Source of the DNA: Strigamia acuminata
Taxonomy: Eukaryota
Length of the DNA: 64,000 nt
Assembly (NCBI GenBank): GCA_949358305.1
Contig: OX442314.1
Coordinates: 15,934,001 to 15,998,000, forward strand
Reading direction: 5' to 3'
Below, piece after piece: positions 3,999 to 32,796 of the stretch. The notes under the pieces are model-generated. The model worked only from the letters and a program-made list of their open reading frames with translations. It had not been told where the DNA came from and made no database searches. Numbering within the stretch: the stretch's first letter is position 1; every line of letters begins with the position of its first letter. Position numbers and translations under genes: made by a program.

Positions 3999-4033
3999 AC
4001 ATCCTCATCCTGCCGCCAGGTAGTACATGTGCG

Positions 4034-6597: not shown

Positions 6598-6673
6598 GGC
6601 GGTAATAAACCTTCTGTCTTCTCAGTTTTCTGTTCTATCCACTATGCATATGGAGCTTTGAGAATGAACATTG

Positions 6674-6808
6674 TTCAAATTCGCCGCTAACTGGTTTTCT
6701 TCAAGAATTTAAGCCAATGAGAATTGCGGTTTTGTTAGTTACAGACCTATGCCAACCAATAAGATGTTTTGCGCGCTTCTTCGTCCGACTTAGGCGCGAT
6801 GTCATTGG
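6674..6808 (-). promoter_or_regulatory. CDE/CHR-like element plus three CCAAT boxes upstream of the Emi1-like gene
   Basis: Minus strand reads TAGCGG-cgaa-TTTGAA at 6689-6674. CCAAT at 6714 and 6756, ATTGG at 6804. Confidence 0.55.
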
Positions 6809-6985
6809 CCAAAATATGACCATTTCTGCACAGAACTAAACTGGAAAACGACAATCACATATATAAGCGCCTCTACTGGCAAGGATTGAACCACATTAGA
6901 CATTTCATGCTTGATTTCATGTTATAGTTAGTTCGTTCCTTATAATCGGCTTCATAATTTTCACATTTCATAGTTTGTGATTGTG

Positions 6986-7286
<301 letters not shown>

Positions 7287-7502
7287 TTGCGACGACGTTG
7301 TACAGATTTGCGAATGAAGCTTACTTCCGAAGAATATTTAAATACAAATCGCAGCAAAGAATTATCTTGATGTGTACTGATTAAACACTGAAAAATACAA
7401 TCAAATTGCCACACGAACCGAACGTTGTTATATAAAAAAAAGTTTATTTGGTCTTACAACATTATTTCCATCATTCAAATGTGATTGATTACGATCACTT
7501 AA

Positions 7503-11258: not shown

Positions 11259-12935
11259 CCAAGTGATTTTAATTTGATTCCAATTTGATTCCAATTCCAA
11301 TTCCATTCCAAGTCCCCCACTAAAAGTTTTTAAATTTTCTTTAAGGGCGGGAAAAAAAATGTATTGATAAAATACCGTACCGAAACTGATTACGCGATTA
11401 AGTACCGTAGTATAGAATAAAGTATACAAAGAAATGCAAGGCGTAACCCTTGTAAAAAATAAAAAAAGATGTTTATTTAAAATGCAAATGTGATTGCACT
11501 TAAAACATTAATTGCAGGTACTGTAATTCTGTAACACTCCTAGAAAATGATTCGACCAATACAATTTTGACTAAAAAAAGATGGGTTCACGCAAAGGTTA
11601 GAAATGTTGATTGCCTTCTTATTCTTACCCCATTCCAATTTGATCAGAATGTGATTCAATCAGAAAAGACAAACATTTACCAACCGTGACATAACGCGCC
11701 AAAACTAATTACATTTATAGATTTTGCTATGAAACAACTAATTAGTGGAATTTGAGATTAGTGTGACCGTGTGTTGCCACACTTAATTCTGTTGTAGATA
11801 TTAATGGCACACGTAAACAGGCAGTTCAAAATGATAAGTGATTTTATTACAAAAGATTCGAAGTTTAAATACAAGTTATACAATACAAGGGATTTTCCAA
11901 AATACACTGATTAGTTAAATACACTAATACGTTGACCTCGCGTTTAATCGTTTTATTGTCCACGCGATGTCCATCCCCAGTGGCGGTCAACAGCAACATT
12001 GGCGGTCAGTATAACTCCAACAAATTCCAAACACTCCTAAATGCTCACACAACCTCAACAATCTGTGTAAAAATAAAATAAACACATGGTCATTTTACCA
12101 TTTGTCAAAATTTTTACTACAGCTATCAACAATATAAGTCATATAAGTTGGCATAAAAATAAGAACGGTAGTATCTTACTTCTTAATTGCCAGCTACCAA
12201 GCCAAGCTCTAATAAAAGAGATATTCTTTTGGTTCTATTGACAAATAAATTCCGCTACTAATTAAAATTAATTGGAACTACCCTCAGGTGAAAAAGGAAA
12301 TCAGCACATACTGTATGCCAGTGAATATGTTCAGAAAAGAAAACAGTAATGGTTCAATCGCGCAAAATTTGATGTGCTTTAAAAAAAATCACCATATTTT
12401 AATTGGTCTTATTTTACTTCTCAATTATCACAAAAATCATAAGTATTTTAAAAATCTAAAACTCAAAACTTTTTGCTCGGATGCGAGCTGCGTAGATAAA
12501 CTGTATTATCGATTATAAAGAGCGTGTACAATTTCTGTATGCAAACAAAGCACTTGGTATTGAAAATCATTTTTCGCATAAATAACAAAAATATTTAAAA
12601 AAAATCCGATCCGATTTCAAGTGACTATAGAAAAAAAAAGCAACCAAGCAAACTAAAGCACTTATAATAACAAGTCCGCACTCCGTACACATAGTGTTCA
12701 CTGCTCTAATATTTACCTTGACTAAAGAAACACAAACGAAATACTTATGTAATTTTCAGGCACTTTTTTTTAACCTTGTTTATTTTAAACTGCTATTTGC
12801 TGTACTTGTATGTACATAGCGATACTCAACATGTTTGATAAACAATATGAAAAGCCTAAGTTGACTATAAACTAAGTTTAAAGCAAAAAACTGAAAACTA
12901 TCTTCTAGTTAGAACTTGACTTGTAGCAATACAAC

Positions 12936-15900
12936 ATGTCTCCACATATGGCCATCATTTTTCGGAGAAAAAAAAAACTACGCCGGACAATTCACCACTT
13001 AATGAAAAATGATGCCCATAAACCTCAATGCAATTTAACTGGCTTGGATGATTTCATAAATAGTAAAAACCGTTCGAGCAAGTATCAAGTCTTTTGGCAA
13101 ATTTTGTTCTCATTTTGCATATGCACGCTCATGTATCAGACACACGATAGAATAATGCATTACTTAAGTCGTCCTATGGCTGTTGATGTAATGGCTAAAT
13201 CAGAAGAGGTCGTTTTACCCCATTTAATGTTCTGCAGTGGCAATACAAAAGAATTGATCAAGCTTTGGAATATGAGTTTTGTTAAAATCGAACCTGTAAA
13301 AGATGATTTCGGTCTATCGAGCTTTTCCTGCGTAAACATGGTGAAAACTCTCATGGCAAACGAAACCTACGACATGGATGAACTTTGGAAGGCAACCAAT
13401 ATGACCAAAGAAATTGTTAGCGTAAAAGTGAAAGTAAATAAAATGGTCAAAAGTATTTTTAACACTATATATAAACCCTATTCTTTTTTCTTAGGGATAT
13501 TCAAAAGAAGCATTTGTACAGACAGAAATTGATAGTGGATATGGAATGTGCGCTGCATTTAAATTTCGTAAATATACAAGCATTGTGGTTATTTTTAAAA
13601 TATAAAATTAAACCTTTCTATTACAACAATTAGGTAAAAATTCAACTGAATCGTTTGTTGGAAAATCACTAACCGTAACTTTCAAAAAATATCTTGACTA
13701 CATATGTTATACAGCCATGTATCATGTACAAGTATACAGTATATCTTACACAGTTCATAAATTACATATACCATTTCTAATTTTGCTTAGATTGTACTGT
13801 CAGTAAATGATTTTGGAAAAAACTACTACAGAACAGCAGAATTCAGTGGTTCAACAGAAACTTTAAATATCAGATATAATAAAGTAATACTTAAAAAAAG
13901 TTGCTTTTTCATAGAGCAGATCAAAAGATCAACTGTGTATACTGTAAAATCGTAAACAATACCTTTTCTGCCTTGTGGCTGCACCTTGCATTTACATTAA
14001 TGAACCGATTGTGTTATTGACAATCAATAATGTTTAATGAAAAAGCAAAGTTCTGCGCTTATTGTTGTTCCTATGAAAATGCACCTAACAGAGTAATAAC
14101 TTAGAATTTTATTGTAACTTTTATCTTTTTACATAATTTCAGTATGTATTTCTTAATTCATCTAAAAATCCTTGCTCCGGCGAAAAGGAATACAGAGATT
14201 GCTATTTCAACTGCTTGTCAAAAAAATTTCAAAATCTCCTCACTTGCAGGTAAACTCCCTGATTCTATGTCGTATACTGCATGTGTCTCCAAACGGGCTA
14301 GATTATGGAGTTTTGTATTAACTTGAAGCCTACCATTTTTTTTTAACCATCCGATTTGACTAGCTGCATTCAAAAATTAAAATAACAATTTTAGTGTATT
14401 TTAAGTTTTAACAAGAGTTTAAATAGGAAATGATGTCATTTTTAGTTTAAAATTGAAGTAAAACACAAAATATTTTAGTTTTTGAATGCAGCTAGTGTTA
14501 GAAATATGTTACGAAAATGGGTCCGACATGGATTTTTGCAAAAGACATATTCTTAAAAATTTCTATGCGTAGAAATAAATTAAATTGATTGGCACGCCAA
14601 TATTCACCAAGATATCATTAGTTGAACGACGGAAATTAACATTGATGATATGTTTTTTTTGCAAAAAACCATCAAAACCATTTTCCCCACTCTAAAAAAT
14701 TTTTAAGCTGGAACCATGTTACATTTAATTTTATATTCTTTTAAAGGTATCCTTTTATTACAAATTTGGACATAAATCTACCCCTATGTGAATGTTCAAA
14801 TGCCACAGCACAACAATATGGTATTGTGATGAAACTACTTGAAACGTCAGATCCCATGGCCACTTGCTCATGTCGCCGGCCCTGTCAACAACTGACCTTT
14901 ATACCGTACATTGATTCAGGCACAGCAGATGATGAAATAACAACATCAATAACTTTAGAGATAACTAATGAGAAAGTTAACGTATTTGAAGAACGGTACA
15001 CATACGATGTTATTGCTTTGCTATCAGATCTAGGAGGCAATTTGGGCCTGTTTCTCGGTCTATCACTAATCTCATTAACAGAAACCAGCTGGTATCTATT
15101 TTGGGTTTCATCAACTATTCGCAGGAAAAAACACTTTAATAAACTGTATCATCTTTATGTGAAATGCAGGAAGAAAATAATTGAACGAGATGAGCAAATT
15201 AAAACGAATAGAATCTTGTTAATGCTTCAGCTAATACTGGTTATAATTAGTATAGGATTTACTGTGTACTACTTGAGAAACCGTTTAAACTACTACCTTG
15301 AAGAACCAGTAACAAAAATCGTTACCGTAGTTCCGAGGCAAAATACTGAATATCCTTCTATCACAATCTGTGGTGAAAATAGAAATAAAGAGATGGATGA
15401 AGCCAGATCAAATGTGCTTAATCAGACAAACCAAAAGTGCGATAAATTATCGCCGTGGCAACTTTTCAGTAGCGATTTCTCGTTAGAGGAAATATGGAGT
15501 GTGCTTAGTGTTCACGACACAATGAATGTTAACGACGACATGGCTAAGGTATTCGGCTAAAATGTGAAATTAATATTTTTGTAACCGTTTTATATTTGTA
15601 GCACTTGACTGGATATCCAACATTGCTAAACATAACAAAGACTCTTACTCCACTTCCTTTTGGTCATTGCTCACAAATGCATGCAGGTAATTCCACTAAT
15701 CTCATCTTTTAGGGTGTTTGTGTTTTTGTATTTTTAACAAAACAAAAACACATACATCTAAAACACTTGAATCACGACTTATTGAATACGGCTCTAGCTG
15801 GTGATTGTTTTACTGATGTGTTAATCTGTACTTGGTTCTTAGCTTGATAATATTTTTTTTATAGAAAAAACAAACGACTTGACAGTTCCCTTTTTACTCT

Positions 15901-17009
15901 CATTGGAATATTTGCTTCCTTCTGAAGTATGTTACCAGGACCTATGGGTATGAATAAAATAAAGCACAAATAAAAAATATAATTATTTTTAATTGAAATA
16001 ATTTTCAGTATTTTCTCAATCACCCAGAAGAGGAAATTAACATTTTGGCACCTTCATCTGTAATCTATGGGGCTACAAATGTAGTAAAGCTACGAATATT
16101 TAAGGTAAATAAAATAGTTATATACCTATACCTTATATGCTTATCTACATACTGGCTTAATTTTATGACATTATAGACTATACGAAGAAATGGAAAGCGC
16201 AATCCTTGTGAAGAAAACAAAACTGTTTATTTGAAGTGTAGAAATGCTTGCATACAAAATAATTTACTTCACATGATAAATTGCAGGTACATTTAAAAAA
16301 AAGTCTAATAGAGGCCCGCGGAATATTCAATTTTCTTCAAAAAATGAAAAATTTTTGTATAAAAGACTGAATATTTCCTTTAAAAAATTGAGTGTTTCCT
16401 TTAAAAAACTGAATGTTTCCTTCAAAAAATTGAATATTTCCTTTAAAAAATTGAATATCGCGTCAAAAAATCAAACATTTCATAAAAAATCGGGCCTGTA
16501 ACCTGTGCGTCCGTGCCGCTATTGGAGCCCCGCGTACAATTAAAAGATGTACCGTATTCAGATTATATAACCAAACTCTGGGTATTTGTAAATTCATGTT
16601 ACGGTTTATTTCTGTTCCTTTCAGATTGCCATACATGCCATCACCTAATTTGCCACTGTGCAACAAAGTAGAAGACGTCATGCGCAGCCATTTAATGTAC
16701 TTAAATAATTACAATTCGAATCAAAAAGCATGCAAATGTAAACTACCTTGTGAAAAGACATTTTACGAATCTACAATGCATGGAAGTAAAGTGCCTGTTC
16801 CCTATTTCACATTTGTACAGCTTGAATTAGCTGATACTTTCATAGAGAATTTTATAGAGAAACAAAAATACCCTTTATCGCAATTTTTAAGTGATATAGG
16901 TAGCATTGTAGGATTAGCGTTGGGAATGTCTTTACTCTCTTTATACACTTGCTTATTAAACAGTTATAATTCGTTTAGACGTGATATTGATAGTTTAAAA
17001 AAAAAATAA
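12936..17009 (+). CDS. Tandem two-subunit DEG/ENaC (ASIC/pickpocket-family) channel, 11 exons, 4 TM; paralogue 1
   Basis: Repeat 1: TM1, LPHLMFC, YGMC, Cys-rich thumb CSCRRPC, TM2 LLSDLGGNLGLFLGLSLISLTE. Same exon continues into repeat 2: TM1, YPSITIC; later exons give FGHC, CKCKLPC and TM2 FLSDIGSIVGLALGMSLLSLY. All 10 introns are GT-AG and in frame. Confidence 0.9.
14361..14494. mobile_element. MITE with TAGCTGCATTCAAAAA terminal inverted repeats (intron 5 of channel 1)
   Basis: TAGCTGCATTCAAAAATTAAAATA...TATTTTAGTTTTTGAATGCAGCTA. A second copy with the same interior lies at 34545-34680. Confidence 0.8.
16361..16458. repeat. Degenerate ~21-bp tandem repeat in the last intron of channel 1
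   Basis: 4-5 copies of aaaaaattgaatatttccttt-like units. Confidence 0.6.
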
Positions 17010-17100
17010 AACATTTCTTCTTTTGCTTGCGAATTAAAATGTTAAAAAAAAATTTCACATACCGGTATCAATTATAATATAATGTCAACCAATTTCAGCA

Positions 17101-17733
17101 CAATTTTTCACAAATAAAATGTCAATTTTTCACAAATAAAATGTCAATTTTTCACAAATAAAATGTCAATTTTTCACAAATAAAATGTCAATTTTTCACA
17201 AATAAAATGTCAATTTTTCACAAATAAAATGTCAATTTTTCACAAATAAAATGTCAATTTTTCACAAATAAAATGTCAATTTTTCACAAATAAAATGTCA
17301 ATTTTTCACAAATAAAATGTCAATTTTTCACAAATAAAATGTCAATTTTTCACAAATAAAATGTCAATTTTTCACAAATAAAATGTCAATTTTTCACAAA
17401 TAAAATGTCAATTTTTCACAAATAAAATGTCAATTTTTCACAAATAAAATGTCAATTTTTCACAAATAAAATGTCAATTTTTCACAAATAAAATGTCAAT
17501 TTTTCACAAATAAAATGTCAATTTTTCACAAATAAAATGTCAATTTTTCACAAATAAAATGTCAATTTTTCACAAATAAAATGTCAATTTTTCACAAATA
17601 AAATGTCAATTTTTCACAAATAAAATGTCAATTTTTCACAAATAAAATGTCAATTTTTCACAAATAAAATGTCAATTTTTCACAAATAAAATGTCAATTT
17701 TTCACAAATAAAATGTCAATTTTTCACAAATAA
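17101..17733. repeat. 22-bp minisatellite (CAATTTTTCACAAATAAAATGT) x ~29
   Basis: Head-to-tail, apparently identical units with no spacers. Confidence 0.97.
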
Positions 17734-18242
17734 TGTATTTACACCAATTGCAAAATAAATAAAAGCGTGCAAACAATTAACTTGATTTTTCATTCATTGA
17801 ACCTAGGACGATCAGTTGATCGACCTAGATTGAATTTACTGCAAAATCAGTTAGTAAAATCCTACAAATACATTTTAAAAACGAGTAAATTTTTTTACCC
17901 ATCGACTATTCTCCAAAAAACGATTACTGTAAGCCCTCATGTCATAAAACTGAACAAATAGTCTATAATTATGAAAGTTTTGACTTTGTTTGCTCTTAGT
18001 AAACTACTCTAATACTAATATTTATCCACTTGATAAACAAGTAACATAAACAGTTATTAAGCGCTCACTTTTTAAAAACCTTGTTTGTTTTTTTTTACTA
18101 AATTTAGCTCTTTACATAACGTCGCACTCACATAACAACACAACGCATAATAATTATTTCAGGCCAATAAACAACTCAGAATTGATTGATAAGCGAAAAA
18201 CATAATAATTGTTCTTCACTCTGGACAAGTTAGCAGTAAAGC

Positions 18243-21200
18243 ATGCCTGCAAACATTTCTATCAGCATTCAGCAAAAAAGAAAACTACGGCTGACAATTC
18301 GTAAATTCTTGAAAGATGATGCAAACAAACCGAGTTGCGATCTAACTGGTTTGGATAATTTTATAAGCACTAAAATACGTTCGAGCAAGTATCATGCGTT
18401 TTGGCTACTTTTGTTCTTATTTTGCACATGCATGCTCACTTATCAGACACATGATAGAATGATGCATTATTTAAGTCGTCCTGTAGCCGTCGACGTAACT
18501 AGCACGTCCGACAATGTCAAATTGCCAGACTTGTTGGTCTGTGGTAGCAACACAAAAGAAATGGTCAGACTTTGGAACAAGACTTTTGTAAAACTTGATA
18601 CCGCAAAAGAGGAATTCAGTCTTTCGAGCTTTAAATGCGTAAACATGATGAAAACTCTGATGGCAAACCAAACCTACAACATGGATGAACTGTGGAAGGC
18701 TACCAATATCACCAAGGAAATTGTTAGCATTAAAATGAAAGTAAAAAAAAAAAATTTAAAATTTTATTTATTATAAAAATAGAACTTTAAACATTATTTT
18801 ACGCACAGGGATATTCAAATGAAAGTGTCGTTCAGACAGTAAGAGGCGATGTGTATGGAATATGTTCAGCGTTTAAATTTGGTCTGTACATTACACCTTA
18901 TGTTTATAGTTTTTAATTATTTTAAAAAATGATCTATTTTGATTACGTGTGTGGACTTGGCCCACCAAAATGTTGGCTGTTACCTAACTTTCAGCCAAAT
19001 AGACCAACATAGGTGTTCCTAATTCATACACAAATTTTGTTTAGCCACTAACTCAAGTAAATCGTTTGTTGGGAAATCCCTAACCGTGAAGTTTGAAAAA
19101 ATAAACGATGACGTGTGTCCTTCAGCTATGTACTATGTAATTTGAATGCGCTTCTGTTGGTTAAAAATATGCAATTCATCATTTTAGTCCTTCCGTTTAC
19201 TTAGATTGGATTCGCATATAATGATTTTGGAAAAAAATTCTTTTCAACATCAAAATTTTCCGGTACAACAACAAAAATCAATCTTAGTTATGACAAAGTA
19301 AAATTCGAAACCAAAAACCAACTTAGATCAAAATATGCCAACAGTTTGACTTCTACTTACATTTTCAGTACATATTTCTAAACTCATCTGAAAACACGTG
19401 CTCCAGCGAAAATGAATACAAAGACTGCTACTTCAAATGCTTAGCAAAAAAATTAAGAGACAAACTAACCTGCAGGTAAAGACTGAATTTAATGCCTATA
19501 GTGATCATCATAAGCGTAATATAACTTTTCATATTCTTTTCAAGACTCCCTTTTATTAATAATACGATAACAAATCTACCTCTATGCGAATGTTCAAACA
19601 CCACGCATGAACTATACGCTAAAGCACTTGAAATAATTATATCAACGGACGCAATTGCTGATTGTTCATGTAGACGTCAATGTCAACAACTAAGTTTTAC
19701 ACCAAATATCGATGCAGCTTTAGCGGAAGATGAAAAAATTACATCAATATCCTTAGAAATAACTAATGAGAAAATGTACGTGTACAACGAAAGATACTCA
19801 TACGACGTTATTGCTTTACTGTCCGACTTGGGAGGCAATTTGGGCCTGTTTCTCGGTCTGTCACTAATCTCTTTTAGTGAAACCATTTGGTATTTATGTT
19901 ACAAAATGTTACAAAGTATTCGCAAAAAAAGACACGTTTATAAGATTCAGCGTTTGTATGAGATATGCAAAAAGATAGTGATTGCACAACATGAGCCAAT
20001 TAAAACAGATGGAATCTTATTGAAACTCAAGCTAATACTCGTTGCAATTAGTACGGGATTCACTTTATACTACTTGAAAAATCGTTTAAATTACTACAAC
20101 GATGAACCTGTAACAAAAACTGTCACCGTAGTACAGCGGGCCTATACTGAATTTCCTTCTGTCACCGTCTGTGGTGAAAATAAAAATGGGGAAATGGACA
20201 AAGGCCGATTGCGTTTGATGGAACAGACAAACAAAATATGCAGTAACATATCGCCCTGGAAATTGTTTAATGACGAATTGCCATTGGAAGATATATGGGA
20301 TTCACTTAATGTCCACGAAAATATTAATCTTGACGGCGATATGACTGTGGTATGTGGCAAAAACAAAATATATTCTACAAAGTTCTCATTGTTTTAGATT
20401 TACAGCATTTGAATGGATACGCAACTAAGCTAAATGTGACGAAAAAGCTTATTCCACTTCCTTTTGGCAATTGCTCACAAGTGCATGCAGGTAATTTAAC
20501 TTACAGAAGTTAATTATAGATGTTAATTACCTAATGATTCCGTTTTTTATAATATTTTTTAGATAATTCAAAGGAATTGACAGTTTACTTTTTAGTTTCA
20601 TTGGAATTTCTTGAACCACCAGAGGAATGTGAGCAGGAACTATGGGTACTGGCACGATGAAACCATTTGCACAAAAAAGACTTAATCTTTGAAATTAAAA
20701 CACTAAAAGCTAAGTAAAGAACGGCAATAATAGCAGGATTAGCTAAAAAAAAATTAGGTGTTTTTGTTTAAGTGTTTTTAATGTAAACACCATTTAAAAC
20801 TTGGGTTTTTTTGTCACAAAATAAGTTTACTTATAGAATAATTTTGAATTACAATAATTTCCAGTACTTTATGAACCCACCAGAAGAGGACGTTGATATT
20901 TTGAGACCAATGTCGGGAAACTATGGGTCGTCAAACGTAGTAACGATCCGAGTATTTAAGGTAATAAACATTTGCCTCAAACAGAAAAATAAAACAAATC
21001 CTTATACCAACTTAATTTATCAATAGACTATACGAAGAAATCTACAGCGCAAACCTTGTGAAATAAACACTGTTAATTATTTCAAATGTATTCGTGAGTG
21101 CAAGCAAAACAATTTATTTCAAATGCTTAAATGCAGGTAAAAAACGTTCACTCAAATTTTGCTTGGAGTAAACCAAACGCTTGTTTCAGATTACCATACA

Positions 21201-21586
21201 TGCTGACAACTAATTTACCTCTGTGTAACACAACAGACGATGTCACTAATGCCCATTCAATGTACTTAAGGAAATATAACTCGAATCAAAAAGAATGTAA
21301 ATGTAAACAACCTTGCACTAAAACATTTTACCAAACTAGCGTGCATGAAATTGCAATCCCTGTTAAGTTTTACACATTTCTACGGTTTGGATTATCTGAT
21401 AATTTCATAGAAACTATAACGGAGAAAGAACAATATCCAATTGCACAATTATTAAGCGATGTAGGCAGCATTTTAGGATTGACTTTGGGGATGTCATTAT
21501 TGTCTTTATACATTTGCATTCTAGAGACTTATAATTGGTTTCGATCCAATATAACTAGTGGATTTGGCCGTTCAAAAAGACAATGA
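18243..21586 (+). CDS. Tandem two-subunit DEG/ENaC channel, 11 exons, 4 TM; paralogue 2
   Basis: Same exon structure as paralogue 1. LPDLLVC, YGIC, CSCRRQC, TM2 LLSDLGGNLGLFLGLSLISFSE, then in the same exon second TM1 and FPSVTVC; later FGNC, CKCKQPC, TM2 LLSDVGSILGLTLGMSLLSLY. Frame intact throughout. Confidence 0.9.
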
Positions 21587-21609
21587 AATATTACATTTTA
21601 CGTTTACAG

Positions 21610-21753
21610 TAGTTTCATTGGAAAAGTTAGTTCAAAATTGCTATTTAAACAATGTGCGCATGCGCAATGCCGCCATTTAAGTTAGATCGAGACAACTCTC
21701 AGTCAAGCAGTTTAAAATGCTGTTTAATCGTACGGACTTTTCGAATGCAGCTA
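21610..21753. mobile_element. Short MITE-like element with degenerate TAGCTGCATTC-type ends
   Basis: TAGTTTCATTGGAAAAGT...ACTTTTCGAATGCAGCTA (15/18 inverted match). The interior is related, in reverse orientation, to the 23511-23686 element. Confidence 0.55.
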
Positions 21754-22052
21754 GTAGTTTTTTAAAATTTTAATGTACCGTGTATACCAATTACAATAGC
21801 ACCTAAGAAATTTTAGCACTACTTTATAAAATTTGTCATTAAAATAAAAGTTAAAATTATACCGTACTGAATTTATATAATGGCAAAAAAAAGAAAACTT
21901 GTAGTTGTAGAGTTAAGTTCATTTCCATTAACAAAATCCCTACTACCCCTACTACCATAAAATTTTCAACACATAATAAATGCATTATTAAATACTGATT
22001 TATGTCAATAGCAGCAAAATAAATTTTAAAAGAACCTCGAGACTAATTTCAA

Positions 22053-24321
22053 CTACAAGATACTACATCCACAGCAACACTTTTGAGGATAGTTAGGTGC
22101 GTACACTTTGTTTTCAAAACCATATACGAAAAAATAATCCGTATTTTCTTTCCACGTGTAATACACTTGAGTAACTGGTACAATTCGAACTCTGTGTCTC
22201 TGAAAGAAAGAGAGAGAGAGAGAGAGAGAGACTATTTTGATCTCTTCATTCTAAGATGAATTCTAGGCTTAATCAACAACAACTACTTGGTTGCCGTTGC
22301 TTATCGCTACGTAGAATTTACTTTCCGAAATGTTTTATAAAATTTTACACCTTACTTGGAACAGATGCAAATAAATATCCTAAGAAAAGTAAACATCTAA
22401 CCCTTCCTTATTTTCCAACTTTATAAATCAGCCGCATTGCTCACACGCCGTTGCTTTTCGTCCACGAATCCATTAAACAACGGCGCGCATTAGCAATACA
22501 AGAATTAGTCACCAGATTTCTCTGTAGTCATCGTCAGAGAAAGCATTTTTTAAAAAAAATACCGGTAGCTCGTTCGTAGGTAAGGAATTTATATTTATTT
22601 GCTTCTGTTACAGTGACAGAAAAAAAAAATACCTGACGGATAATTTTTTCCTCAGTATAATCTATATTATGCTGTTGAACTAATTTTGAAGATGCGATAT
22701 TGACAGCTTGGTCTGGGAAATGGTTTATCGGCCAAACCTAAACACCAAAGAATTTATTTTATATTTAATAATTACTCTACTGGTGATGATCACGACGATT
22801 ATGATTATTTTATTTTAATACTCTCGGTAAATCCTCTTCAAAAGCTAACTGGCCACTAACTGTGCGAACTAAATCGTCAGGCAATGACGTGCGTTCTACG
22901 ATGTAATCGCTTACATGATTTTTCCTAACAAATAAAAAATCTTTAATTTATATTTTATTAAAACTGAACAATTTACCAAGACAGACGAAGTTGATTATAA
23001 TGTTTAAGCTTTCCCTTTCCGCTACATGAGTCGCACTCTATTTGTCCATGTCCATCGCACCGTACGCACCTACATATAATCAGTATTGAAAAATGCCAGT
23101 TTCTTAGAGTTTCATCTTCCAATATTGTCCTACCTCGTTTTCGTATGACCGTGACAAGAAGAGCAAGTTTCATCATTATATCGGCGTCCAGTTCCAGAGC
23201 AAGACGAGCAATTTACCTTTCAATTAAATCAGTTATATCAGCTCTCAAAAGCTTCAACTTGTATATTTTATGATCTCACTTGTCCATCACCATAACATTG
23301 TGTACATCTTCGTCTACCGGTAGCAGCACAACGATGACATGATTTTACAGATGCCGTATGGGGCACTTCAGTCATCATTTTAGTTTCATTGTACGCAGAG
23401 GGAGGTGAAACTGCAATTTCCCATGCCCTAGGGGCTGGTCCGTTCGCGCTTGAATCGATGGTTTGGCCTACAAGAAAATTATAAAACGTAATAAACAAAT
23501 TAAAACACATTAGGCGCATTTATAAAGTCATTTAGACGAAACAGCATTTTAAACAACATATTTTAACTGCTTGTCTCGATCTAAATTCAAAATGGCGGCC
23601 GATTTAGTCTGTTTTCATGCGCACTATATTTAAAGAAGAAAACATGTTTAACTGCTAATTAAACTTGTATTTAAAAATTGCGCCTACTAAAATTATTATA
23701 CTACCATAATATGGCTCACTCGTCCAACGAGTTTGGCGCGATTCTCCAAAAGTTTCCAAAGTATACTGAAATTTGTAAGTGTCAAAAGTGTATAGAAAAA
23801 AAATGGAGTAATGTGTGAATTACATGGAAAGCTGAAGTGTTTTCAATACTTTGAAAAATCATTTTTTCAGCTGCTGATTTGCCATAACAACAATGCTCGG
23901 AAACGAAATTTAGAAGAGCTTCTCTAGCTTGATCTTCGGTCAGTGCTGGATAACTTGTAAAACTGCTTCTTGAAGGTGGTTGACCATGGTATGCGTGGTC
24001 ACTAGCCGGGGGTGAAAGTGATGCTAAATTTGATTTATTAATTATAGCACGACTTGCATTTTTTTATTTTACTTTTTGTTGTATAACTTACCAACATCGA
24101 ATGAAACGTTTTCATAACCATGAACTTTATCCATCAGCTCAACAGGAGGCGCTGATGCGAGAAGATCAACAGGTTCTTTACTCTCACCAGAGACGCCATT
24201 ACTAGCATCTAAATTTATTTATAATATAATTAATATCTTATACAATATATTTTTTCCATTGAGATTTAATTAGTTTACCTGAAGCCATTTACTCCGATGG
24301 ATGAGTTAATGTAACATTCAT
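22053..24321 (-). CDS. SSUH2-like protein, copy 1 (10 exons; TAA at codon 11 followed by in-frame ATG at 24288)
   Basis: SAPPVELMDKVHGYE, EDQAREALLNFVSEHCCYG, YTLETFGESR, EVPHTASVKSCHRC, CxxCxGxG repeats, YFFVYGFENKVYAPNYPQKCCCGCSIL*. Confidence 0.85.
22209..22232. repeat. (GA)n microsatellite in the last intron of SSUH2-like copy 1
   Basis: About 12 GA units. The same site is shorter in copy 2. Confidence 0.85.
23511..23686. mobile_element. MITE with TAGGCGCATTT terminal inverted repeats in an SSUH2-like intron
   Basis: Inverted ends are visible. Also present at 30534-30704 (13-bp perfect TIR) and absent from the short equivalent intron of copy 3. Confidence 0.75.
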
Positions 24322-26219
24322 TGGTGGTGGATTTCTTAATACAAATAGAAAGTGAAATATGCAAGCTTTTTATCTAAACATTACAATGGTAAATAAAATA
24401 GTCACGGAATATGTAAAAAATATTTTACCGAATCAAATTATGTTGGTAATTATTTTGGATATTTTGATAGATTGCACTGAAAAATTACCAATTATTAAAT
24501 ATTAGGGTTCTCTTCTTTTCCTTAACACGATGTTGAATTTAATGTTCACCCTTTGAAACTCCAATGGGAAAAATTTAAAAATGTTGAATGCCAATATTCA
24601 TGTTATTTAAATTTACTTTTTCTGGCTATTTAGTTACTCAATAGTCAATACGTTATGTTTTAGCAAATTTACCTACTTACGCTGTGTGAGCCATCGTTTA
24701 CATTCAAAATAGCTTAGGGGGAGTACGAAATATCTTATCAAAACAACGTGCTTTTGTTGTGATAAAAATGGTTATGTAATGTGCAGATGTGATTGCACTC
24801 AAAAAATTAATTGCAGGTACTGTTAACCCTTCTAGAAAATGTTTTGCCCAATACAATTTTGACTAAAAAAAGATGGGTTCACATGAAATGTTGATTACCT
24901 TCTTATTCTTACTCCATTCCAATTTTATCAATGTGATTCAATCAGAAAAGACAAACATTTACCAACCGTGACATAACGTGCCCAAAACTAATTACATTTA
25001 TAGATTTTGCTATGAAACAACTAATTAGTGGAATTAAAGATTAGTGTGACCGTGTGTTGCCACACTTAATTCTGTTGTAGATATTAATGGCACACATAAA
25101 CAGGCAGTTCAAAATGATAAGTGATTTTATTACAAAAGATTCGAAGTTTAAATACAAGTTATACAACACAAGGGATTATCCAAAATACACTTGATTAGTT
25201 AAAGTTACACTAATACGTTGACCTCGCGGTTTATCGTTTTATTGTCCACGCGACGTTCATGCCCAGTGGCGGTCAACAGCAACATTGGCGGTCAGTAAAA
25301 CTCCAACAAATTCCAAACACTCCTAAATGCTCACACAACCACAACAATCTGTGTAAAAATAAAATAAACACATGGTCATTTTACAATTTGTCAAAATTTT
25401 TACTACAGCTATCAACAATATAAGTCATAATAGTTGGCATAAAAATAAGAACGGTAGTATCTTACTTCTTAATTGCCAGCTACCAAGCCAAGCTCTAATA
25501 AAAGAGATATTCTTTTGGTTCTATTGACAAATAAATTCCGCTACTAATTAAAATTAATTGGAACTACCCTCAGGTGAAAGAGGAAATCAGCACATACTGA
25601 ATGCCAGTGAATATTGTTCAGAAAAGAAAACAGTAATGGTTCAATCGCGCAAAATTTGATGTGCTTTCAAAAAAAAATTACCATATTTTAATTAGTCTTA
25701 TTTTACTTCTCAATTATCACAAAAATCATAAGTATTTTAAAAATCTAAAACTCAAAACTTTTTGCTCGGATGCGAGCTGCGTAGATAAACTGTATTATCG
25801 ATTATAAAGAGCGTGTACAATTTCTGTATGCAAACAAAGCACTTGGTATTGAAAATCATTTTTCGCATAAATAACAAAAATATTTAAAAAAAATCCGATT
25901 TCAAGTAACTATAGAAAAAAAAAGCAACCAAGCAAACTAAAGCACTTATAATAACAAGTCCGCACTCCGTAGACATAATGTTCGCTGCTCTAATATTTAC
26001 CTTGACTAAAGAAACACAAACGAAATACTTACGTAATTTTCAGACACTTTTTTTTAACCTTGTTTATTTTAAACTGCTATTTGCTGTACTTGTATGTACA
26101 TAGCGATACTCAAAATGTTTGATAAACAATATGAAAAGCCCAAGTTGACTATAAACTAAGTTTAAACCAAAAAACTGAAAACTATCTTCTAGTTAGAACT
26201 TGACTTGTAGCAATACAAC

Positions 26220-26403
26220 ATGTCTCCACATATGGCCATCATTTTTCGGAGAAAAAAAAAACTACGCCGGACAATTCACCACTTAATGAAAAATGATGCC
26301 CATAAACCTCAATGCAATTTAACTGGCTTGGATGATTTCATAAATAGTAAAAACCGTTCGAGCAAGTATCAAGTCTTTTGGCAAATTTTGTTCTCATTTT
26401 GCA
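26220..26403 (+). pseudogene. Truncated exon-1 fragment of channel paralogue 1
   Basis: Matches 12936-13119 (MSPHMAII...ILFSFC), then breaks into duplicated upstream sequence. Confidence 0.9.
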
Positions 26404-27029
26404 ACATTTACAAACATTTACCAATCGTGACATAACGTGCCACCAAAACTAATTACATTTATAGATTTTGCTATGAAACAACTAATTAGTGGAATTTGAG
26501 ATTAGTGTGACCGTGTGTTGCCACACTTAATTCTGTTGTAAATATTAATGGCACACGTAAACAGGCAGTTCAAAATGATAAGTGATTTTATTACAAAAGA
26601 TTCGAAGTTTAAATACAACTTATACAACACAAGGGATTATCCAAAATACCCTGATTAGTTAAATATACACTAATACGTTGACCTTGCGTTTTATCGTTTT
26701 ATCGTCCACGCGATGTCCATCCCCAATGGCGGTCAACAGCAACATTGGCGGTCAGTAAATCTCCAACAAATTCCAAAACACTCCTAAATGCTCACACAAC
26801 CTCAACAATCTGTGTAAAAATAAAATAAACACATGTTCATTTTACCATTTGTCAACATTTTTACTACAGCTCTCAACAATATAAGCCATAATAGAACAGT
26901 ATCGTACTTCTTAATTGCCAGCTACCAAGCTAAGCTCTAATAAAAGAGATATTCTTTCTGTTCTGTTGACAAATAAATTCCACTACTATCATTAATTGGA
27001 TGTACCCTCAGGTGAAAGAGGAAATCAGC

Positions 27030-27384
27030 AACAAAGCAGAAGACATCATGCGCAGCCATTTAATGTACTTAAATAATTATAACTCGAATCAAACAGCATG
27101 CAAATGTAAACTACCTTGTGAAAAAACATTTTACGAATCTACAATGCGTGTAAGTAAAGTGCCTGATTCCTATTTCCCATTTGTACAGCTTGAATTAGCT
27201 GATACTTTCATAGAGAATTTTATAGAGAAACAAAAATACCCTTTATCGCAATTTTTAAGTGATATACCGTATAGGTAGCATTGTAGGATTAATGTTGGGA
27301 ATGTCAATACTCTCTTTATACAATTGCCTATTAAAAAGTTATAATTCGTTTAAACGTATTATTGATAGTTTAAACAAAAAATGA
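27030..27384 (+). pseudogene. Last-exon fragment of channel paralogue 1 with frameshift
   Basis: Matches 16662-17010. A small insertion after SDI (gatataccgtataggtagc versus gatataggtagc) shifts the frame before TM2. Confidence 0.9.
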
Positions 27385-27716
27385 AACATTTCTTCTTACG
27401 ATTACCGTAAGCCCTCATGTCATGAAACTGAACAAATAGTCTATAATTATGAAAGTTTTGACTATGTTTGCTCTTAGTAAACTACTCTAATACTAATATT
27501 TATCCACTTGATAAACAAGTAACATAAACAGTTATTAAGCGCTCACTTTTTAAAAACCTTGTTTGTTTTTTTTTACTAAATTTAGCTCTTTACATAACGC
27601 CGTACTCACATAACAGAACGCATAATAATTATTTCAGACAAATAAACAACACACAATTGATTGATAAGCGAAAACATAATAATTGTTCTTCACTCTGGAC
27701 AAGTCAGCAGTAGAGC

Positions 27717-28669
27717 ATGCCTGCAAACATTGCCATCAGTTTTCAGCAAAAGAGAAAACTACTGTCACGGGCAGGCTACCCACCCTCTTTTTATTTTCAT
27801 TTTTTAACTTAGACTAATCCATCTTAACTTATTGTCCCTTTATTCTTTTATCCTCTTTTGATTTGATGACTCATTTTTCTATAATAAATGTGCGAATAAG
27901 ACTTTGCGCATCCTATTATTCTCAATAATCGAATTCCTATATCTACCTTTCACCCCTTGATTTACCTTTACATGATCCGGTCACATGACCAGGTTAACTT
28001 AATGTCATCTAACCCAACTGAAATCACTTCTCTACCCACTCTCGACTGATACACATGTCTTAGACCAGGGGTCGGCAAGTAATTTTAAGTGGGGTCCGGA
28101 TACTATGGAAAATTTTTTATCGAGGTCCGGAAAAGAAACGCTTTTAAAAACCTTGCTAAAAACTTAAGAAAACGGAAAAAAAAACACTTAAAAACCAAAT
28201 AAACCCCCCAATCAACACACACAACCCAAAAAATACCAATGAAACCGAAAAAACACGAAAAAAAAAAACAGGAAAAACAAGAAAAAACACTGAAAAACCA
28301 AAGAAACCGAAGGAAAAACGTCGCTAAAACGTCACCGCGGTACAAGTTTCGACCTTTCGCGGTTCGGATACGGAGTTCTGATCCCGTCGAATATGAAATA
28401 ATGTTGAGTCACTGTGTGACCGGACACCTTTAATTGCCTGATGTCAAAATTTGAGATATAGTTAAATTAATTTCTAACATTCAAATTAATCGTGACACTA
28501 CGTCTGACAATTCGTAAATTTATGAATGATGATGCAAACAAACCAAGTTGCGATCTAACTGGTTTGGATAATTTTATAAGCACTAAAATACGTTTGAGCA
28601 AGTATCATGCCTTTTGGCTACTTTTGTTCTTATTTTGCACATGTATGCTAATTTATCAGACACATGATA
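27717..28669 (+). pseudogene. Exon-1 fragment of channel paralogue 2, interrupted by a solo LTR and truncated at a MITE
   Basis: MPANIAISFQQKRKL / RLTIRKFMNDDANKPSCDLTGL...YQTHD matches 18243-18456. Confidence 0.9.
27763..28497. mobile_element. Solo LTR (735 bp), probably Ty3/Gypsy-like
   Basis: Termini TGTCACG...CGTGACA with 4-bp target duplication CTAC on both sides. The empty site AAACTACGGCTG is in the intact paralogue at ~18282-18293. Confidence 0.9.
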
Positions 28670-28671
28670 TA

Positions 28672-28954
28672 CAGGGTGTTCTAAAAGTCTGGTCCCCTCC
28701 AAATATATCCTCAGCAATTGCATCTTGGCCAACTTTGATGAAGCGATCGTATAGGAAGTTTGGTGAGAGCAATCCAATGATGTCATCAAATTTGACCTTG
28801 AAGGCCATTTTCAAGGTGACTAAGATAAATTGGATAGTACTAATTTGATGGTGCTCTAAAACTTTCTAATTGAAAATTTTTCTCTAACCTGATTGGTTTA
28901 GAAGTTAGCAAGTTAATGACCATTTGGAGGGGACCAGACTTTTAGAACACCCTG
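28672..28954. mobile_element. Tc1/mariner-type MITE (283 bp)
   Basis: 33-bp perfect TIR CAGGGTGTTCTAAAAGTCTGGTCCCCTCCAAAT, flanked by TA at both ends. Confidence 0.92.
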
Positions 28955-29070
28955 TAGACTACACCTACTACCATAAAATTTTTAACACACACAATAAATG
29001 CATTATTAAATACTGATTTATTTCAATGGCAGCAAAATCATTTTTAAAAGAAACTCGAGACTTATTTCAA

Positions 29071-31342
29071 CTACAAGATACTACATCCACAACAACACTT
29101 TTGAGGGTAGTTAGGTGCGTACACTTTGTTTTCAAAACCATATACGAAAAAATAATCCGTATCTTCTTTCCACGTGTAATATACTTGAGTAACTGGTACA
29201 ATTCGAACTCTGTGTCTCTGAAAGAGAGAGAGAAAGAAACTATTTTGACATCTTTCATTCAAAGAAGAATTCTAGGCTTAATCAACATCAACTACTTGGT
29301 TGCTGTTGCTTATCGCTACATAGAATTTACTTTCCGAAATGTTTTTTAAGCTTCTATATCTTATCTGGAACAGAAGCAAATAAATATCCTAAGAAAAGTA
29401 AACATCTAACCCTTATTTTCCAACTTCATAAATTAGCCGTATTGCTCACACGCCGTTGCTTTTCGTCCACGCGTCCATTAAACCAAGGTCGACCTTGCAT
29501 TAAACAACGGCGCGCATTAGCAATACAAGAATTAGTCACCAGATTTCTCTGTAGTCATCGTCAGAGAAAGCATTTTTTTAAAAATACCGGTAGCTCGTTC
29601 ATAGGTAAGGAATTTTTATTTACTTGCTTCTGTTACACTGACAGAAAAAAAAATACCTGACGCATAATTCTTTCCATAATATAATCTGTATTGTGCTGTT
29701 GGACTAATTTTGAAGATGCGATATTGATAGCTTGGTCTGGGAAATGGTTTATCGGCCAAACCTAAACACCAAAGAGTTTTTTTATATTTAATAATTACTC
29801 TACTGATGATGATCACGGCGATTATGATTATTTTATTTTAATACTCTCGGTAAATCCTCTTCAAAAGCTAACTGGCCACTAACTGTGCGAACTAAATCTT
29901 CCGGTAATGACGTGCGCTCTACGATGTAATCGCCTACATGATTTTTCCTAACAAATAAGAAATCTTTAATTTATATTTTATTGAAACTGAACAATTTACC
30001 AAGACAGACAAAGTTGAATATAACATTTAAGCTGTCCCTTTCCGCTACATGATTTGCACTTTATTTGTCCATTTCCATGGCAGTTTAAGCACCTACATAT
30101 AATCAGTAATGAAAAATGTCAGTTTCTTAGAGTTTCGTCTTCCAATATTGTCCTACCTCGTTCTCCTTTGACCGTGACAAAAAGAGCAAGTTTCATCATT
30201 AAATCGGCGTCCAGATCCAGAGCAAGACGAGCAATTTACCTTTCAATTAAATCAGTTACATCAGCTCTCAAAGGCTTCAACTTGTATATTTTATGATCTC
30301 ACTTGTCCATCACCTATACACGTTGGACATCGTCGTCTACCGATAGCAGCACAATCATGACATGATTTTACAGATGCCGTATGGGGCACTTCAGTCGTCA
30401 TTTTAGTTTCCTTGTACGCAGCGGGAGGTGATACTGCAATTTCCCATGCCCTAGGGGCTGGTCCGTTCACGCATGAATCGATGGTTTGGCCTACAAGAAA
30501 ATTATGAAATGTAATAAACAAATTAAAACACATTAGGCGCATTTATAAAGTCATTTAGACGAAACAGCATTTTAAACATTTTAAACTGCTTGTCTCGATC
30601 TAAATTCAAAATGGCGGCCGATTTAGTCTGTTTTCATGCGCACTACATTTAAAGAAGAAAACATGTCTAACTGCTAATTAAACTTGTATTCATAAATGCG
30701 CCTACTAAAATTATTAGACTACCAATGTATGGCTCACTCGTCCAACGAGTTTGGCGCGATTCTCCAAAAGTTTCCAAAGTATACTGAAATTTGTAAGTGT
30801 CAAAAGAGTATAGCAAAAAAAATGGAGTAATACGTGAATTACATGGAAAGCTGAAGTGTTTTCAATACTTCGAAAAACCATTTCTTCAGCTGCTGATTTG
30901 CCATAACAACAATGCTCGGAAACGAAATTTAGAAGAGCTTCTCTAGCTTGATCTTCGGTCAGTGCTGGATAACTTGTAAAACTGCTTCTTGAAGGTGGTT
31001 GACCATGGTATGCGTGGTCACTAGCCGGTGGTGAAAGTGATGCTAAATTTGATTTATTAATTATAGCACGACTTGCAGTATTTTTTATTTTACTTTTTGT
31101 TGTGTAACTTACCAACATCGAATGAAACGTTTTCATAACCATGAACCTTATCCATAAGCTCAAGAGGAGGCGCTGATGCGAGAAGATCAACAGGTTCTTC
31201 ACTCTCACCAGAGACACCATTACTAGCGTCTAAATTTATTTATGATACAATTAATATCTTATACAATATATTTTTCCCATTGAGATTTAATTAGTTTACC
31301 TGAAGCCATGTACTCCGATGGATGAGTTAATGTAACATTCAT
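29071..31342 (-). CDS. SSUH2-like protein, copy 2 (apparently intact, 10 exons)
   Basis: Starts MNVTLTHPSEYMAS. Same exons as copy 1. Ends PQKCCCGCSIL*. Confidence 0.87.
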
Positions 31343-32796
31343 TGGTGGTGGATTTCTTAATAAAAATAGAAAGTGAAATATGCAAGCTTTTTATCTAAAC
31401 ATTACAATGGTAAATAAAATAGTCACGGAATATGTAAAAAATATTTTACCGAATCAAATTATGTTGGTAATTATTTTGGATATTTTGATAGATTGCACTG
31501 AAAAATTACCAATTATTAAATATTAGGGTTCTCTTCTTTTCCTTAACACGATGTTGAACTTAATGTTCACCCTTTGAAACTCAACTCCAATGTGAAAAAA
31601 TTAAAAATGTTGAATGTCAAGATTCATATTATTTAAATTTACTTTTTCTGGCTATTTAGTTACTCAATACCTTATGTTTTAGCAAATTTACGTTTACAAA
31701 AATGTGTACCTACACCTACTTACGCTGTGTGAGCCATCGTTTACATTCAAAATAGCTTAGGGGGAGTATTCTAGTCACAGTACTACGAAATTTCTTATCA
31801 AAACAACCTGCTTTTGTTGTGATAAAAATTATCAAATACAAACAACTTGATCCGTTGTCACATTAGATAAACAATGGTTTTATTTTTCTAAATTGATAAG
31901 TATATTAATTAAAAATAATATAAATTATAATTAATTTTTGAATAAAACACCTCAGAGTTATTAGTGTTTGTTTTTAATCTAAAATATTTAAATATCAGAT
32001 AAAAATGCACTTTTCTTATATATATGTGTACACATATTTAATGAATGGACGACGCAGTTAAGTTTTATCCTAAAAATCTCAATTTACAATTATCGGTATT
32101 TCAAAACAGCTGGTGTCGTTATACCGTATGGTAGTGTACGGTTTTAAATTGTCATAACCAACCTTTAAATTATACGACTTCAATTTATCTTGTATATCAT
32201 TTCATTTACCTTGTGTTCATGGTACAGTACATGCGGTTGCATCACTCCTACTAGTGAAAACCAAAACAAAGTACAGAGAAAGCGGATATTTACTTCCAGG
32301 AAGAGAGCGGTTTTCCATATAAATAATAAATGGATTATTTAAAAAAAATCCTGTTTACAACTGAAAGCAGGTCAGAATTGAAGATTGGAACCGAGTAGTA
32401 TGCCAAAGGTAATGGTCATAAATTAAATGAAATATTTCAGAATTTTATTTTATTTTTGGAAATACAAAACCAAACATTTGTAATCAAACACACATTATTT
32501 TATATTTTTTAAATTTAAAAAAGTTGTGATTTCAATCCAACAGAAACATAAAAAAGTTGTGTATATTTTTGTAGGAAGCTTGGAAATCCTTAATTGCTCA
32601 GCAATGACTCCTTGGATGTTTGTTATTATTATTATTTATTATTATTATTTTCAGTAATTCTTGACTTTAACTGTGATGCATAACAATTACATCACACGAC
32701 CTTGATTATACAGTATACACACTTCATTAGAATCTAATATAAGTGACACCGCGTTGGCCACCGCGACATGTGTGTCATCTCGTGGACTTATTTAAA

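What the first reader, a model, noticed from the sequence alone, without database searches (positions are those of the whole stretch)
18243..21586. A second intact tandem-channel paralogue makes this a maintained family
Seen: paralogue 2 is clearly diverged from paralogue 1 in protein sequence and its introns do not align by eye. It still keeps all 11 exons, an open linker of the same length and both TM2 motifs. Inference: purifying selection acts on the fused state, and the adjacent pair could co-assemble, giving four distinct subunit types from two genes.
Basis: partly seen in the sequence, partly recalled or inferred. Interest (0 to 1): 0.72.

Follow-up and report, generated by a model that had tools for sequence, protein, structure and literature searches.

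The report
Natural two-subunit sodium-channel fusions in centipedes
Two intact neighbouring genes each encode two ENaC-type ion-channel subunits joined in one reading frame, an arrangement shared by many gene models of the centipede Strigamia maritima, so these normally three-part channels likely come with two of their parts pre-linked in a fixed order.

Summary
Confirmed. 18243-21586 is an intact 11-exon gene (812 aa). It encodes two DEG/ENaC subunits, A and B, fused inside one 805-nt exon. Its neighbour (807 aa, 59% identical) has the same structure. Both repeats are under purifying selection (dN/dS 0.31 and 0.53). The linker is not constrained in sequence (1.03, wide interval), but a neutral linker would stay open with probability below 0.001. 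A recent duplicate of both genes next door has already decayed. The family is far larger than two. Eleven named Strigamia maritima models share the junction, B repeats form one clade, and contigs of this genome show further paralogues. The second glycine of the TM2 gate motif is kept in 24 of 24 A repeats and replaced in 10 of 11 B repeats. The nearest solved relatives are the homotrimeric centipede antennal channels BRTNaC1 and PDPNaC1. Best reading: a natural A-B concatemer filling two slots of a trimeric cation channel, completed by a third, A-type subunit. Expression, stoichiometry and co-assembly of the two neighbours are untested. Eight literature searches found no natural multi-repeat DEG/ENaC.

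The parts
18243..21586 (+). Paralogue 2 (P2): 11-exon gene, 812 aa, two DEG/ENaC repeats, four predicted TM segments. Exons 18243-18740, 18809-18881, 19045-19136, 19205-19297, 19369-19475, 19545-20349, 20406-20490, 20563-20645, 20865-20960, 21027-21136, 21190-21586
   Evidence: splice sites, open frame; Pfam ASC
18243..19905 (+). Repeat A (to residue 408): TM1a at about 18393-18455, cysteine-rich ectodomain, TM2a; intron phases 0,1,0,0,2
19545..20349 (+). Exon 6, the fusion exon: end of ectodomain A, TM2a, linker, TM1b and start of ectodomain B in one uninterrupted frame
   Evidence: two ASC stretches; contig across the junction, 0 differences
19792..19905 (+). TM2a with Asp382, Gly385 (19834-19836), Asn386, Gly388 and a G-L-S belt; these align to PDPNaC1 Asp372, Gly375, Ser376, Gly378 and G-A-S
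   Evidence: dN/dS 0.12
19906..20010 (+). Basic linker of about 35 aa, inferred cytosolic: 9 Lys/Arg, no N-glycosylation sequon, no stop, no Met shared with P1, probable amphipathic helix
20011..21586 (+). Repeat B (residues 444-812): TM1b at about 20011-20073, ectodomain, TM2b at about 21425-21538 with Ser774 (21467-21469) in place of the gate glycine; intron phases 0,1,0,0,2 at matching sites
12936..17009 (+). Paralogue 1 (P1): intact 11-exon tandem gene, 807 aa; fusion exon 14747-15548
   Evidence: contigs match with 0 differences over 13090-13405, 13376-14383, 14472-15060 and 15032-16707
26220..27397 (+). Broken younger copy of P1: the first 184 nt are identical to P1, the middle is missing, and the last exon is 92% identical with a 7-nt insertion
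27717..28669 (+). Broken younger copy of P2: only the first 71 or so codons remain, split by an insertion of about 734 nt (27763-28496) and ending at a 288-nt element with inverted ends (28670-28957)
   Evidence: very high contig depth over 27926-29251
17101..17733 (.). Perfect 22-nt tandem array (28.8 copies) in the 1.2-kb spacer between P1 and P2; no role shown

Best explanation
The gene encodes two complete DEG/ENaC subunits, A and B, joined head to tail in one reading frame that selection has kept open, and the protein likely fills two of the three positions of a trimeric cation channel, with a third, probably A-type, subunit closing the pore. Shown: gene structure, open junction, constraint on both repeats, family-wide A/B asymmetry at the TM2 gate. 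Inferred: (1) an ancestral six-exon gene duplicated and the copies fused, since five intron phases repeat in both halves; (2) the fusion happened once and the fused gene then multiplied by birth and death; (3) the linker lies in the cytosol and works as a tether of restricted length; (4) A supplies the canonical pore helix, while B, with a larger residue at the gate, is tolerated about once per pore, so the fusion would fix subunit ratio and order; (5) the third subunit comes from a single-repeat relative or from the A half of another tandem chain; (6) the channels likely serve as sensory receptors, like their antennal relatives.
For: The frame is intact, with matching intron phases in both halves and both paralogues. 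All 30 cysteines of P1 have a counterpart in P2. dN/dS is 0.43 for the whole gene (0.35-0.52), 0.31 for A and 0.53 for B. Calibrated on the neighbouring recent duplication (31 frameshifting indels per 256 substitutions), a neutral 105-nt linker stays free of frameshifts with P 0.008 or 0.0003 and free of stops with P 0.09 or 0.04, at dS 0.38 or 0.63. The younger copies of both genes are already broken at 92-95% identity. The junction recurs in 22 database proteins that I assigned to this clade, 11 of them looked up and all S. maritima. The spacing from the TM2a belt to the post-TM1b cysteine is 99-127 aa in 23 of 24. B repeats form one clade (11 of 11, 100/96), and 9 of 10 A repeats form another (95/89). 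A tree grouping A and B of the P1/P2 subfamily is rejected, p-AU 0.037. The gate glycine is present in 24 of 24 A and 1 of 11 B repeats. The nearest structures by sequence and fold are BRTNaC1 and PDPNaC1; PDPNaC1 is a homotrimer gated at Asp372 and Gly375 (PMC12714832). Engineered head-to-tail ASIC1a dimers conduct (PMC4529235). An AlphaFold model of the S. maritima tandem P0010 recovers four TM helices and two ectodomains, pLDDT 68.7, pTM 0.64.
Against: No transcript or protein of the fused form was seen. Linker dN/dS is about 1. A two-subunit chain does not fit a trimer evenly, and no third partner was identified. The S. maritima models are automated and several are plainly broken: P0001 has a duplicated N-terminus and lacks parts matching exons 5 and 11. 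Whether their junctions lie in single exons could not be checked. The A+B sister grouping is weak (86/54), and the full A clade is only 85/63. The engineered ASIC dimers also gave lower-mass bands, so cleavage may explain their currents. Identity to the characterised centipede channels is only about 20%, so their stimuli do not transfer.
Confidence: 0.55

Rival explanations
1. Tandem chains assemble only with each other, and every repeat is used: three A-B chains build two trimers (A2B and AB2) tethered by a shared chain, which clusters the channels.
For: It needs no extra partner. Both repeats keep the upper-gate Asp and mostly a G-x-S belt. The linker spacing varies from 99 to 127 aa, which may allow some reach.
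Against: An AB2 pore would hold two large residues at the gate position. The linker in the P1/P2 subfamily is only 34-35 aa, short for bridging two trimers (inference).
Confidence: 0.15
2. The fused protein is a precursor: the linker is cut, or transcripts are processed, to give separate A and B subunits, and the fusion only ensures 1:1 co-expression.
For: The linker holds basic clusters and is unconstrained in sequence. Engineered ASIC1a concatemers gave lower-mass bands. P1 has one AATAAA in the linker.
Against: The linker is inferred to be cytosolic, away from furin-type proteases (own knowledge). No basic site is invariant across the six closest junctions. There is no stop after TM2a and no shared Met before TM1b. 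P2 lacks the AATAAA, which occurs 2.9 times per kb in this window.
Confidence: 0.12
3. Two A-B chains form a four-subunit (AB)2 pore, departing from the trimer rule.
For: Even stoichiometry fits a two-repeat chain. One crosslinking study argued for ASIC1a tetramers (PMC4529235). The gate residue of B differs systematically.
Against: The nearest characterised relative, PDPNaC1, is a homotrimer, the BRTNaC1 entries list three chains each, and each repeat keeps the family fold. Three-repeat models in decapods match trimer arithmetic.
Confidence: 0.08
4. B is no longer a pore subunit but an attached accessory (a ligand-binding or trafficking module), with pores made of A repeats only.
For: B lost the gate glycine in 10 of 11 cases, has the higher dN/dS, and has no His-Gly or Thr-Gly motif before TM1 in P1 or P2 (alignment).
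Against: TM2b is still constrained (dN/dS 0.29, 0.11-0.67). dN is similar in both repeats (0.24 and 0.28), so the dN/dS gap comes mainly from dS. PDPNaC1 also lacks a canonical HG motif and still conducts.
Confidence: 0.07
5. The fusion is an annotation or assembly artefact, or a neutral read-through between two adjacent genes.
For: Fused gene models are often artefacts (PMC12964723, seen as a search listing only). There is no RNA confirmation.
Against: The junction lies inside one ORF in both paralogues and is matched base for base by short-read contigs. A neutral linker would have closed. The junction recurs across a diverged family.
Confidence: 0.03

Closest known systems
PDPNaC1 (PDB 9JF7) and BRTNaC1 (PDB 8YMR and related), Scolopendra antennal DEG/ENaC channels
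   Same: Best PDB hits by sequence and by fold (E 1e-18 to 3e-17). Similar compact subunit size. Asp, Gly, Gly and G-x-S pore positions align in repeat A.
   Different: They are single two-TM subunits of 421 and 431 aa with only about 20% identity here. This protein has two subunits in one chain, Asn at the Ser376 position in A, and Ser at the Gly375 position in B.
DEG/ENaC/ASIC superfamily (Pfam PF00858), including heteromeric ENaC and pickpocket channels
   Same: Each repeat has TM1, a cysteine-rich ectodomain and TM2 with a G-x-S tract. Unequal subunits in one pore are known from ENaC (own knowledge; that the ENaC alpha subunit has Ser at the matching gate position is recalled, not tested).
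   Different: Described members are one subunit per polypeptide. Here two diverged subunits (22-23% identical) are covalently linked by the gene itself.
Engineered ASIC1a and ENaC concatemers
   Same: Head-to-tail C-to-N linkage; two-, three- and four-subunit ASIC1a fusions gave currents in oocytes (PMC4529235).
   Different: Those are laboratory constructs of identical subunits with full termini and a Gln linker. This one is natural, heteromeric, has trimmed termini, and is conserved across a gene family.
Internally repeated channels: two-pore-domain K2P, two-pore channels, four-repeat Nav/Cav (recalled)
   Same: Gene duplication and fusion turn separate subunits into repeats that then diverge asymmetrically.
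   Different: In those, the repeat number divides the pore symmetry (2 or 4 into 4). Two does not divide three, which is the open puzzle here. No homology is implied.

Membership tests
DEG/ENaC (PF00858) | ASC domain above the curated cut-off in each repeat | tested here: met
   Exon 1 42.5 bits, exon 6 72.4 bits with two stretches, exon 11 55.3 bits; cut-off 23.6
DEG/ENaC (PF00858) | Cysteine-rich ectodomain between TM1 and TM2 | tested here: met
   Cysteine pattern shared between repeats and paralogues; fold of the tandem relative P0010 matches BRTNaC1, PDPNaC1 and ASIC1
DEG/ENaC (PF00858) | TM2 with Asp, Gly-Gly and G-x-S tract | tested here: met
   Fully met in repeat A; in repeat B the Asp and G-x-S are kept and the second Gly is Ser
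DEG/ENaC (PF00858) | Pre-TM1 His-Gly motif | tested here: not met
   Thr-Gly in A, nothing equivalent in B. PDPNaC1 also lacks a canonical HG motif, so this is not disqualifying
DEG/ENaC (PF00858) | One subunit with two TM segments per polypeptide | tested here: not met
   Two subunits and four TM segments in one frame; this is the variant feature
DEG/ENaC (PF00858) | Trimeric assembly and cation conduction | not testable with these tools
   Needs expression; no complex prediction was run
BRTNaC1/PDPNaC1 centipede sensory channels | Orthology or shared clade | tested here: inconclusive
BRTNaC1/PDPNaC1 centipede sensory channels | Antennal neuron expression; heat or proton gating | not testable with these tools
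   No RNA run was available for the locus
Strigamia two-repeat DEG/ENaC clade (defined here) | A repeat in the A clade, B repeat in the B clade, junction spacing about 100-125 aa | tested here: met
   P1, P2 and S. maritima P0001-P0004 form one well-supported subfamily whose inner order is unresolved

The most novel reading that the evidence does not exclude
These centipede genes build a DEG/ENaC channel that breaks the plain-trimer rule, either a four-subunit (AB)2 pore or two trimers tethered by shared chains. They would be one of several independent arthropod inventions of single-chain DEG/ENaC channels, alongside three-repeat decapod proteins that would encode a whole pore in one polypeptide, as four-repeat Nav and Cav channels do.
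Probability: 0.22. Interest if true: 0.92.

Novelty: new variant of a known kind. Interest (0 to 1): 0.72.

Why it matters
DEG/ENaC channels are taken to be trimers of separate two-TM subunits, and physiologists build artificial concatemers to fix stoichiometry. A natural, selected, family-wide A-B fusion shows evolution doing the same, with an awkward number: two repeats for three slots. It offers ready-made constructs for asking how subunit order is set, what an asymmetric gate does, and whether non-trimeric assemblies exist. It also points to a large, apparently undescribed receptor expansion in a blind soil centipede lineage, and warns that double ASC models in arthropod annotations should not all be dismissed as merged genes.

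Tried and rejected
No whole genome is held for this window. The run search listed no RNA holder; this says nothing about expression. The word-indexed protein searches were insensitive: 1 hit, 1 hit (the query itself) and 3 hits, all S. maritima. Fused forms in other centipedes were therefore neither found nor excluded. AlphaFold of the three-repeat protein P0035 with an 11-row alignment gave six TM helices but pLDDT 60 and pTM 0.35, so it gives no support for a closed single-chain trimer. The ESM Atlas returned only generic ASC clusters; a second query on the neighbouring gene did not complete twice. No complex prediction was run: two full chains exceed the size limit, and a pass for the halves of a stand-in would mostly reflect known trimers. 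The patchy joints on P2 fit P1 or other paralogues, not splicing. P1 and P2 as a species-specific sister pair is unresolved (56/53). Gene conversion as the cause of the lower dS in B was checked exon by exon, and no clear tract appeared. Earlier scan notes gave nothing by place or by sequence; the two hits by words concern separate neighbouring Naegleria genes, not fusions. Vizueta et al. 2020, cited in PMC8438182 as reporting S. maritima PPK candidates, is not held and may bear on novelty. In the S. maritima genome paper the main text had no ENaC terms, but only 7 of 57 supplements were searched. The 'multiple asc' hits in PMC10178586 were about ascending doses.

Full report
Observation. The window is AT-rich animal DNA with short introns. 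Reading the splice sites by hand and checking them in a script gives an 11-exon gene from ATG 18243 to a stop ending at 21586. All introns are GT-AG, and the frame is 812 aa without internal stops. The upstream gene, 12936-17009, has the same 11 exons and gives 807 aa; identity is 475 of 807. Nine of ten intron pairs score no better than shuffles, and one reaches p=0.023 uncorrected. Pfam ASC matches exon 1, two stretches of exon 6, and exon 11. The junction TM2a-linker-TM1b lies inside exon 6, one uninterrupted ORF in both genes, so it is not produced by a gene predictor. The exon is 805 nt against 802 nt, one codon different. Contigs from two runs of one study match both genes base for base across the junction; they may be the window's own source.

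Origin. The intron phases run 0,1,0,0,2 in each half at matching places, and the halves are 22-23% identical. I infer that a six-exon single-subunit gene duplicated, and that the last exon of the first copy merged with the first exon of the second.

Selection. By Nei-Gojobori counting with a codon bootstrap, dN/dS is 0.43 for the whole gene (0.35-0.52), 0.31 for repeat A, 0.53 for repeat B, 0.12 for TM2a and 0.29 for TM2b. The linker gives 1.03 (0.43-2.81, 35 codons). The frame tells a different story. A younger segmental duplication next door (about 11465-24769 copied to 24764-31829, 91-95% identical) gives 31 frameshifting indels per 256 substitutions. Under that rate and neutral substitution, the chance that 105 nt stay free of frameshifts and stops in both genes is about 7e-4 at dS 0.38 and 1e-5 at dS 0.63 (products of the values). 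In that younger copy both channel genes are already wrecked by deletions, a 7-nt insertion and two mobile-element insertions. The copied last exon of P1 differs at 15 non-synonymous and 5 synonymous codons; the copied start of P2 differs at 6 and 8. So new copies can decay quickly while P1 and P2 have lasted.

The family. A full HMMER search with exon 6 returned 304 proteins at E up to 0.001, of which 150 were listed. Counting P1, P2 and four added cluster members, 40 of 156 sequences show a TM2-then-TM1 junction. I assigned 22 database proteins to the P1/P2 clade by tree or by motif. Eleven were looked up and all are Strigamia maritima; the other 11 were not looked up. I left out of the counts four proteins of a second clade (P0005, P0006, P0008, P0013) and all multi-repeat models of other animals, and I added P0047 to the B set because of its place in the tree. 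The closest four S. maritima models are 53-58% identical over exon 6, so I infer the window comes from a related centipede. In a 41-row tree, all 11 B repeats form one clade (100/96) and 9 of 10 A repeats form another (95/89). The join of A and B is weak (86/54), and several long branches meet. Forcing A and B of the P1/P2 subfamily together is rejected (p-AU 0.037). One old fusion followed by expansion fits best. In this genome's own contigs, 8 to 28 contigs per listed site carry other letters at the best-conserved sites of repeat A of P1 at 80% likeness. Joints of equal depth link pieces matching exon 1, exon 5 and TM1b, which I read as at least one more fused paralogue. Contig depth is not a copy number, so I give no count.

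Asymmetry. PDPNaC1 is gated at Asp372 and Gly375, with Ser376 as proton site and Gly378 affecting selectivity (PMC12714832; part 1 of 9 and passages read). Aligned to it, repeat A has Asp382, Gly385, Asn386, Gly388 and G-L-S, while repeat B has Asp771, Ser774, Ile775, Gly777 and G-M-S. Across the family the gate glycine is kept in 24 of 24 A repeats and 1 of 11 B repeats, and the next residue is Asn in 23 of 24 A repeats. The spacing from the TM2a belt to the post-TM1b cysteine is 99-127 aa in 23 of 24 junctions. The linker is basic, 34-35 aa long and 37% identical among the six closest sequences. It has no sequon, while P2 has 13 sequons in the two ectodomains, which fits a cytosolic tether.

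Mechanism. The best-supported reading is a natural A-B concatemer occupying two slots of a trimer, with a third, probably A-type, subunit from a single-repeat relative or from another tandem chain (0.55). The nearest solved relatives by sequence and by fold are BRTNaC1 and PDPNaC1. BRTNaC1 is a 431-aa two-TM heat sensor of centipede antennae (PMC9974506; parts 1-2 of 5 read). Engineered ASIC1a dimers conduct, although lower-mass bands were seen (PMC4529235; passages). An AlphaFold model of the S. maritima tandem P0010 gives four TM helices and two ectodomains at pTM 0.64. That value is higher than I would expect for two unpacked domains (own judgement), but the linker is low-confidence and I could not inspect the geometry. 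Rivals are tethered pairs of trimers (0.15), a cleaved precursor (0.12), an (AB)2 tetramer (0.08), B as a non-pore accessory (0.07) and an artefact (0.03). A sensory role is inferred from the birth-and-death pattern and from the relatives, not shown. Nothing here shows expression, or co-assembly of P1 with P2.

Wider pattern. The same search returned three-repeat models in the shrimp Halocaridina (P0022, P0070) and in two Petrolisthes crabs (P0118, P0156), and in unnamed contigs of 3.4-4.5 kb that the ORFs largely fill (P0035, P0082). The Halocaridina proteins and P0082 group by repeat position in a fast tree. A second S. maritima clade has closely similar repeats, which suggests a separate, younger concatenation. 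Some other multi-repeat models, such as Polypedilum P0039 and Helobdella P0068, have repeats that are each other's closest relatives and may be merged neighbours. The fold test of a three-repeat protein was inconclusive.

Novelty. Eight searches of the held library listed no paper on natural multi-repeat DEG/ENaC proteins. I checked passages of PMC5203786, PMC7067487, PMC8438182 and PMC10178586 and the main text of PMC4244043 by term search; only 7 of its 57 supplements were searched. One relevant paper was not held, and subscription journals are largely missing from the library. Verdict: a real, selected, apparently undescribed variant of a known channel family, with an open and testable question of stoichiometry. 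Interest 0.72.

Noticed in passing
Proteins P0022, P0070 (Halocaridina rubra), P0118, P0156 (Petrolisthes), P0035, P0082 (unnamed contigs); Three-repeat single-chain DEG/ENaC models in decapods. In the Halocaridina proteins and P0082 the repeats group by position, and in some cases the ORF largely fills a 3.4-4.5 kb contig. They could encode a whole trimeric pore in one chain. In P0035 and P0118 the middle repeat is much shortened. The AlphaFold test was inconclusive.
   Followed up: partly
Proteins P0005, P0006, P0008 (S. maritima) and P0013; A second multi-repeat clade with closely similar repeats, up to three or more per model, apparently a younger concatenation independent of the A-B fusion; merged gene models are not excluded.
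   Followed up: partly
window 24764-31829 versus 11465-24769: Recent segmental duplication (91-95% identical) of P1, P2 and the downstream gene, with both channel copies broken. The stretch 12936-13119 is identical to 26220-26403 while other copied parts differ by 5-8%, which suggests recent gene conversion.
   Followed up: yes
window 27763-28496 and 28670-28957: An insertion of about 734 nt with 6-nt inverted ends and a 4-5 nt target duplication (solo-LTR-like, inferred), and a 288-nt element with long inverted ends flanked by TA (Tc1/mariner-type MITE, inferred). Both are high-copy in the contigs.
   Followed up: partly
window 21942-24769, 28958-31829 and 32785-34465, minus strand: Three copies of a cysteine-rich multi-exon gene that resembles SSUH2 (name recalled; the one exon scanned had no Pfam hit, and the Atlas query did not complete).
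   Followed up: no
window 37070-47746 (+) and 49879-58651 (-): A receptor tyrosine kinase (Pfam PK_Tyr_Ser-Thr; Trk-like by recall) preceded by many short exons that look like Ig domains, and an opposite-strand array of similar repeated exons (65-79% DNA identity).
   Followed up: no
window 61461-63125, minus strand: 554-aa ORF with a Retrotrans_gag match and 12/24-nt tandem repeats; part of a retrotransposon at the window end.
   Followed up: no
window 662-10067: Housekeeping neighbours: an MCM subunit, a tRNA intron endonuclease, an F-box protein and exocyst Sec6.
   Followed up: no
window 16368-16481 (P1 intron 10): A 21/42-nt tandem repeat inside the intron; the frame upstream of exon 11 stays open from 16455, so exon 11 looks longer than it is in ORF lists.
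   Followed up: no
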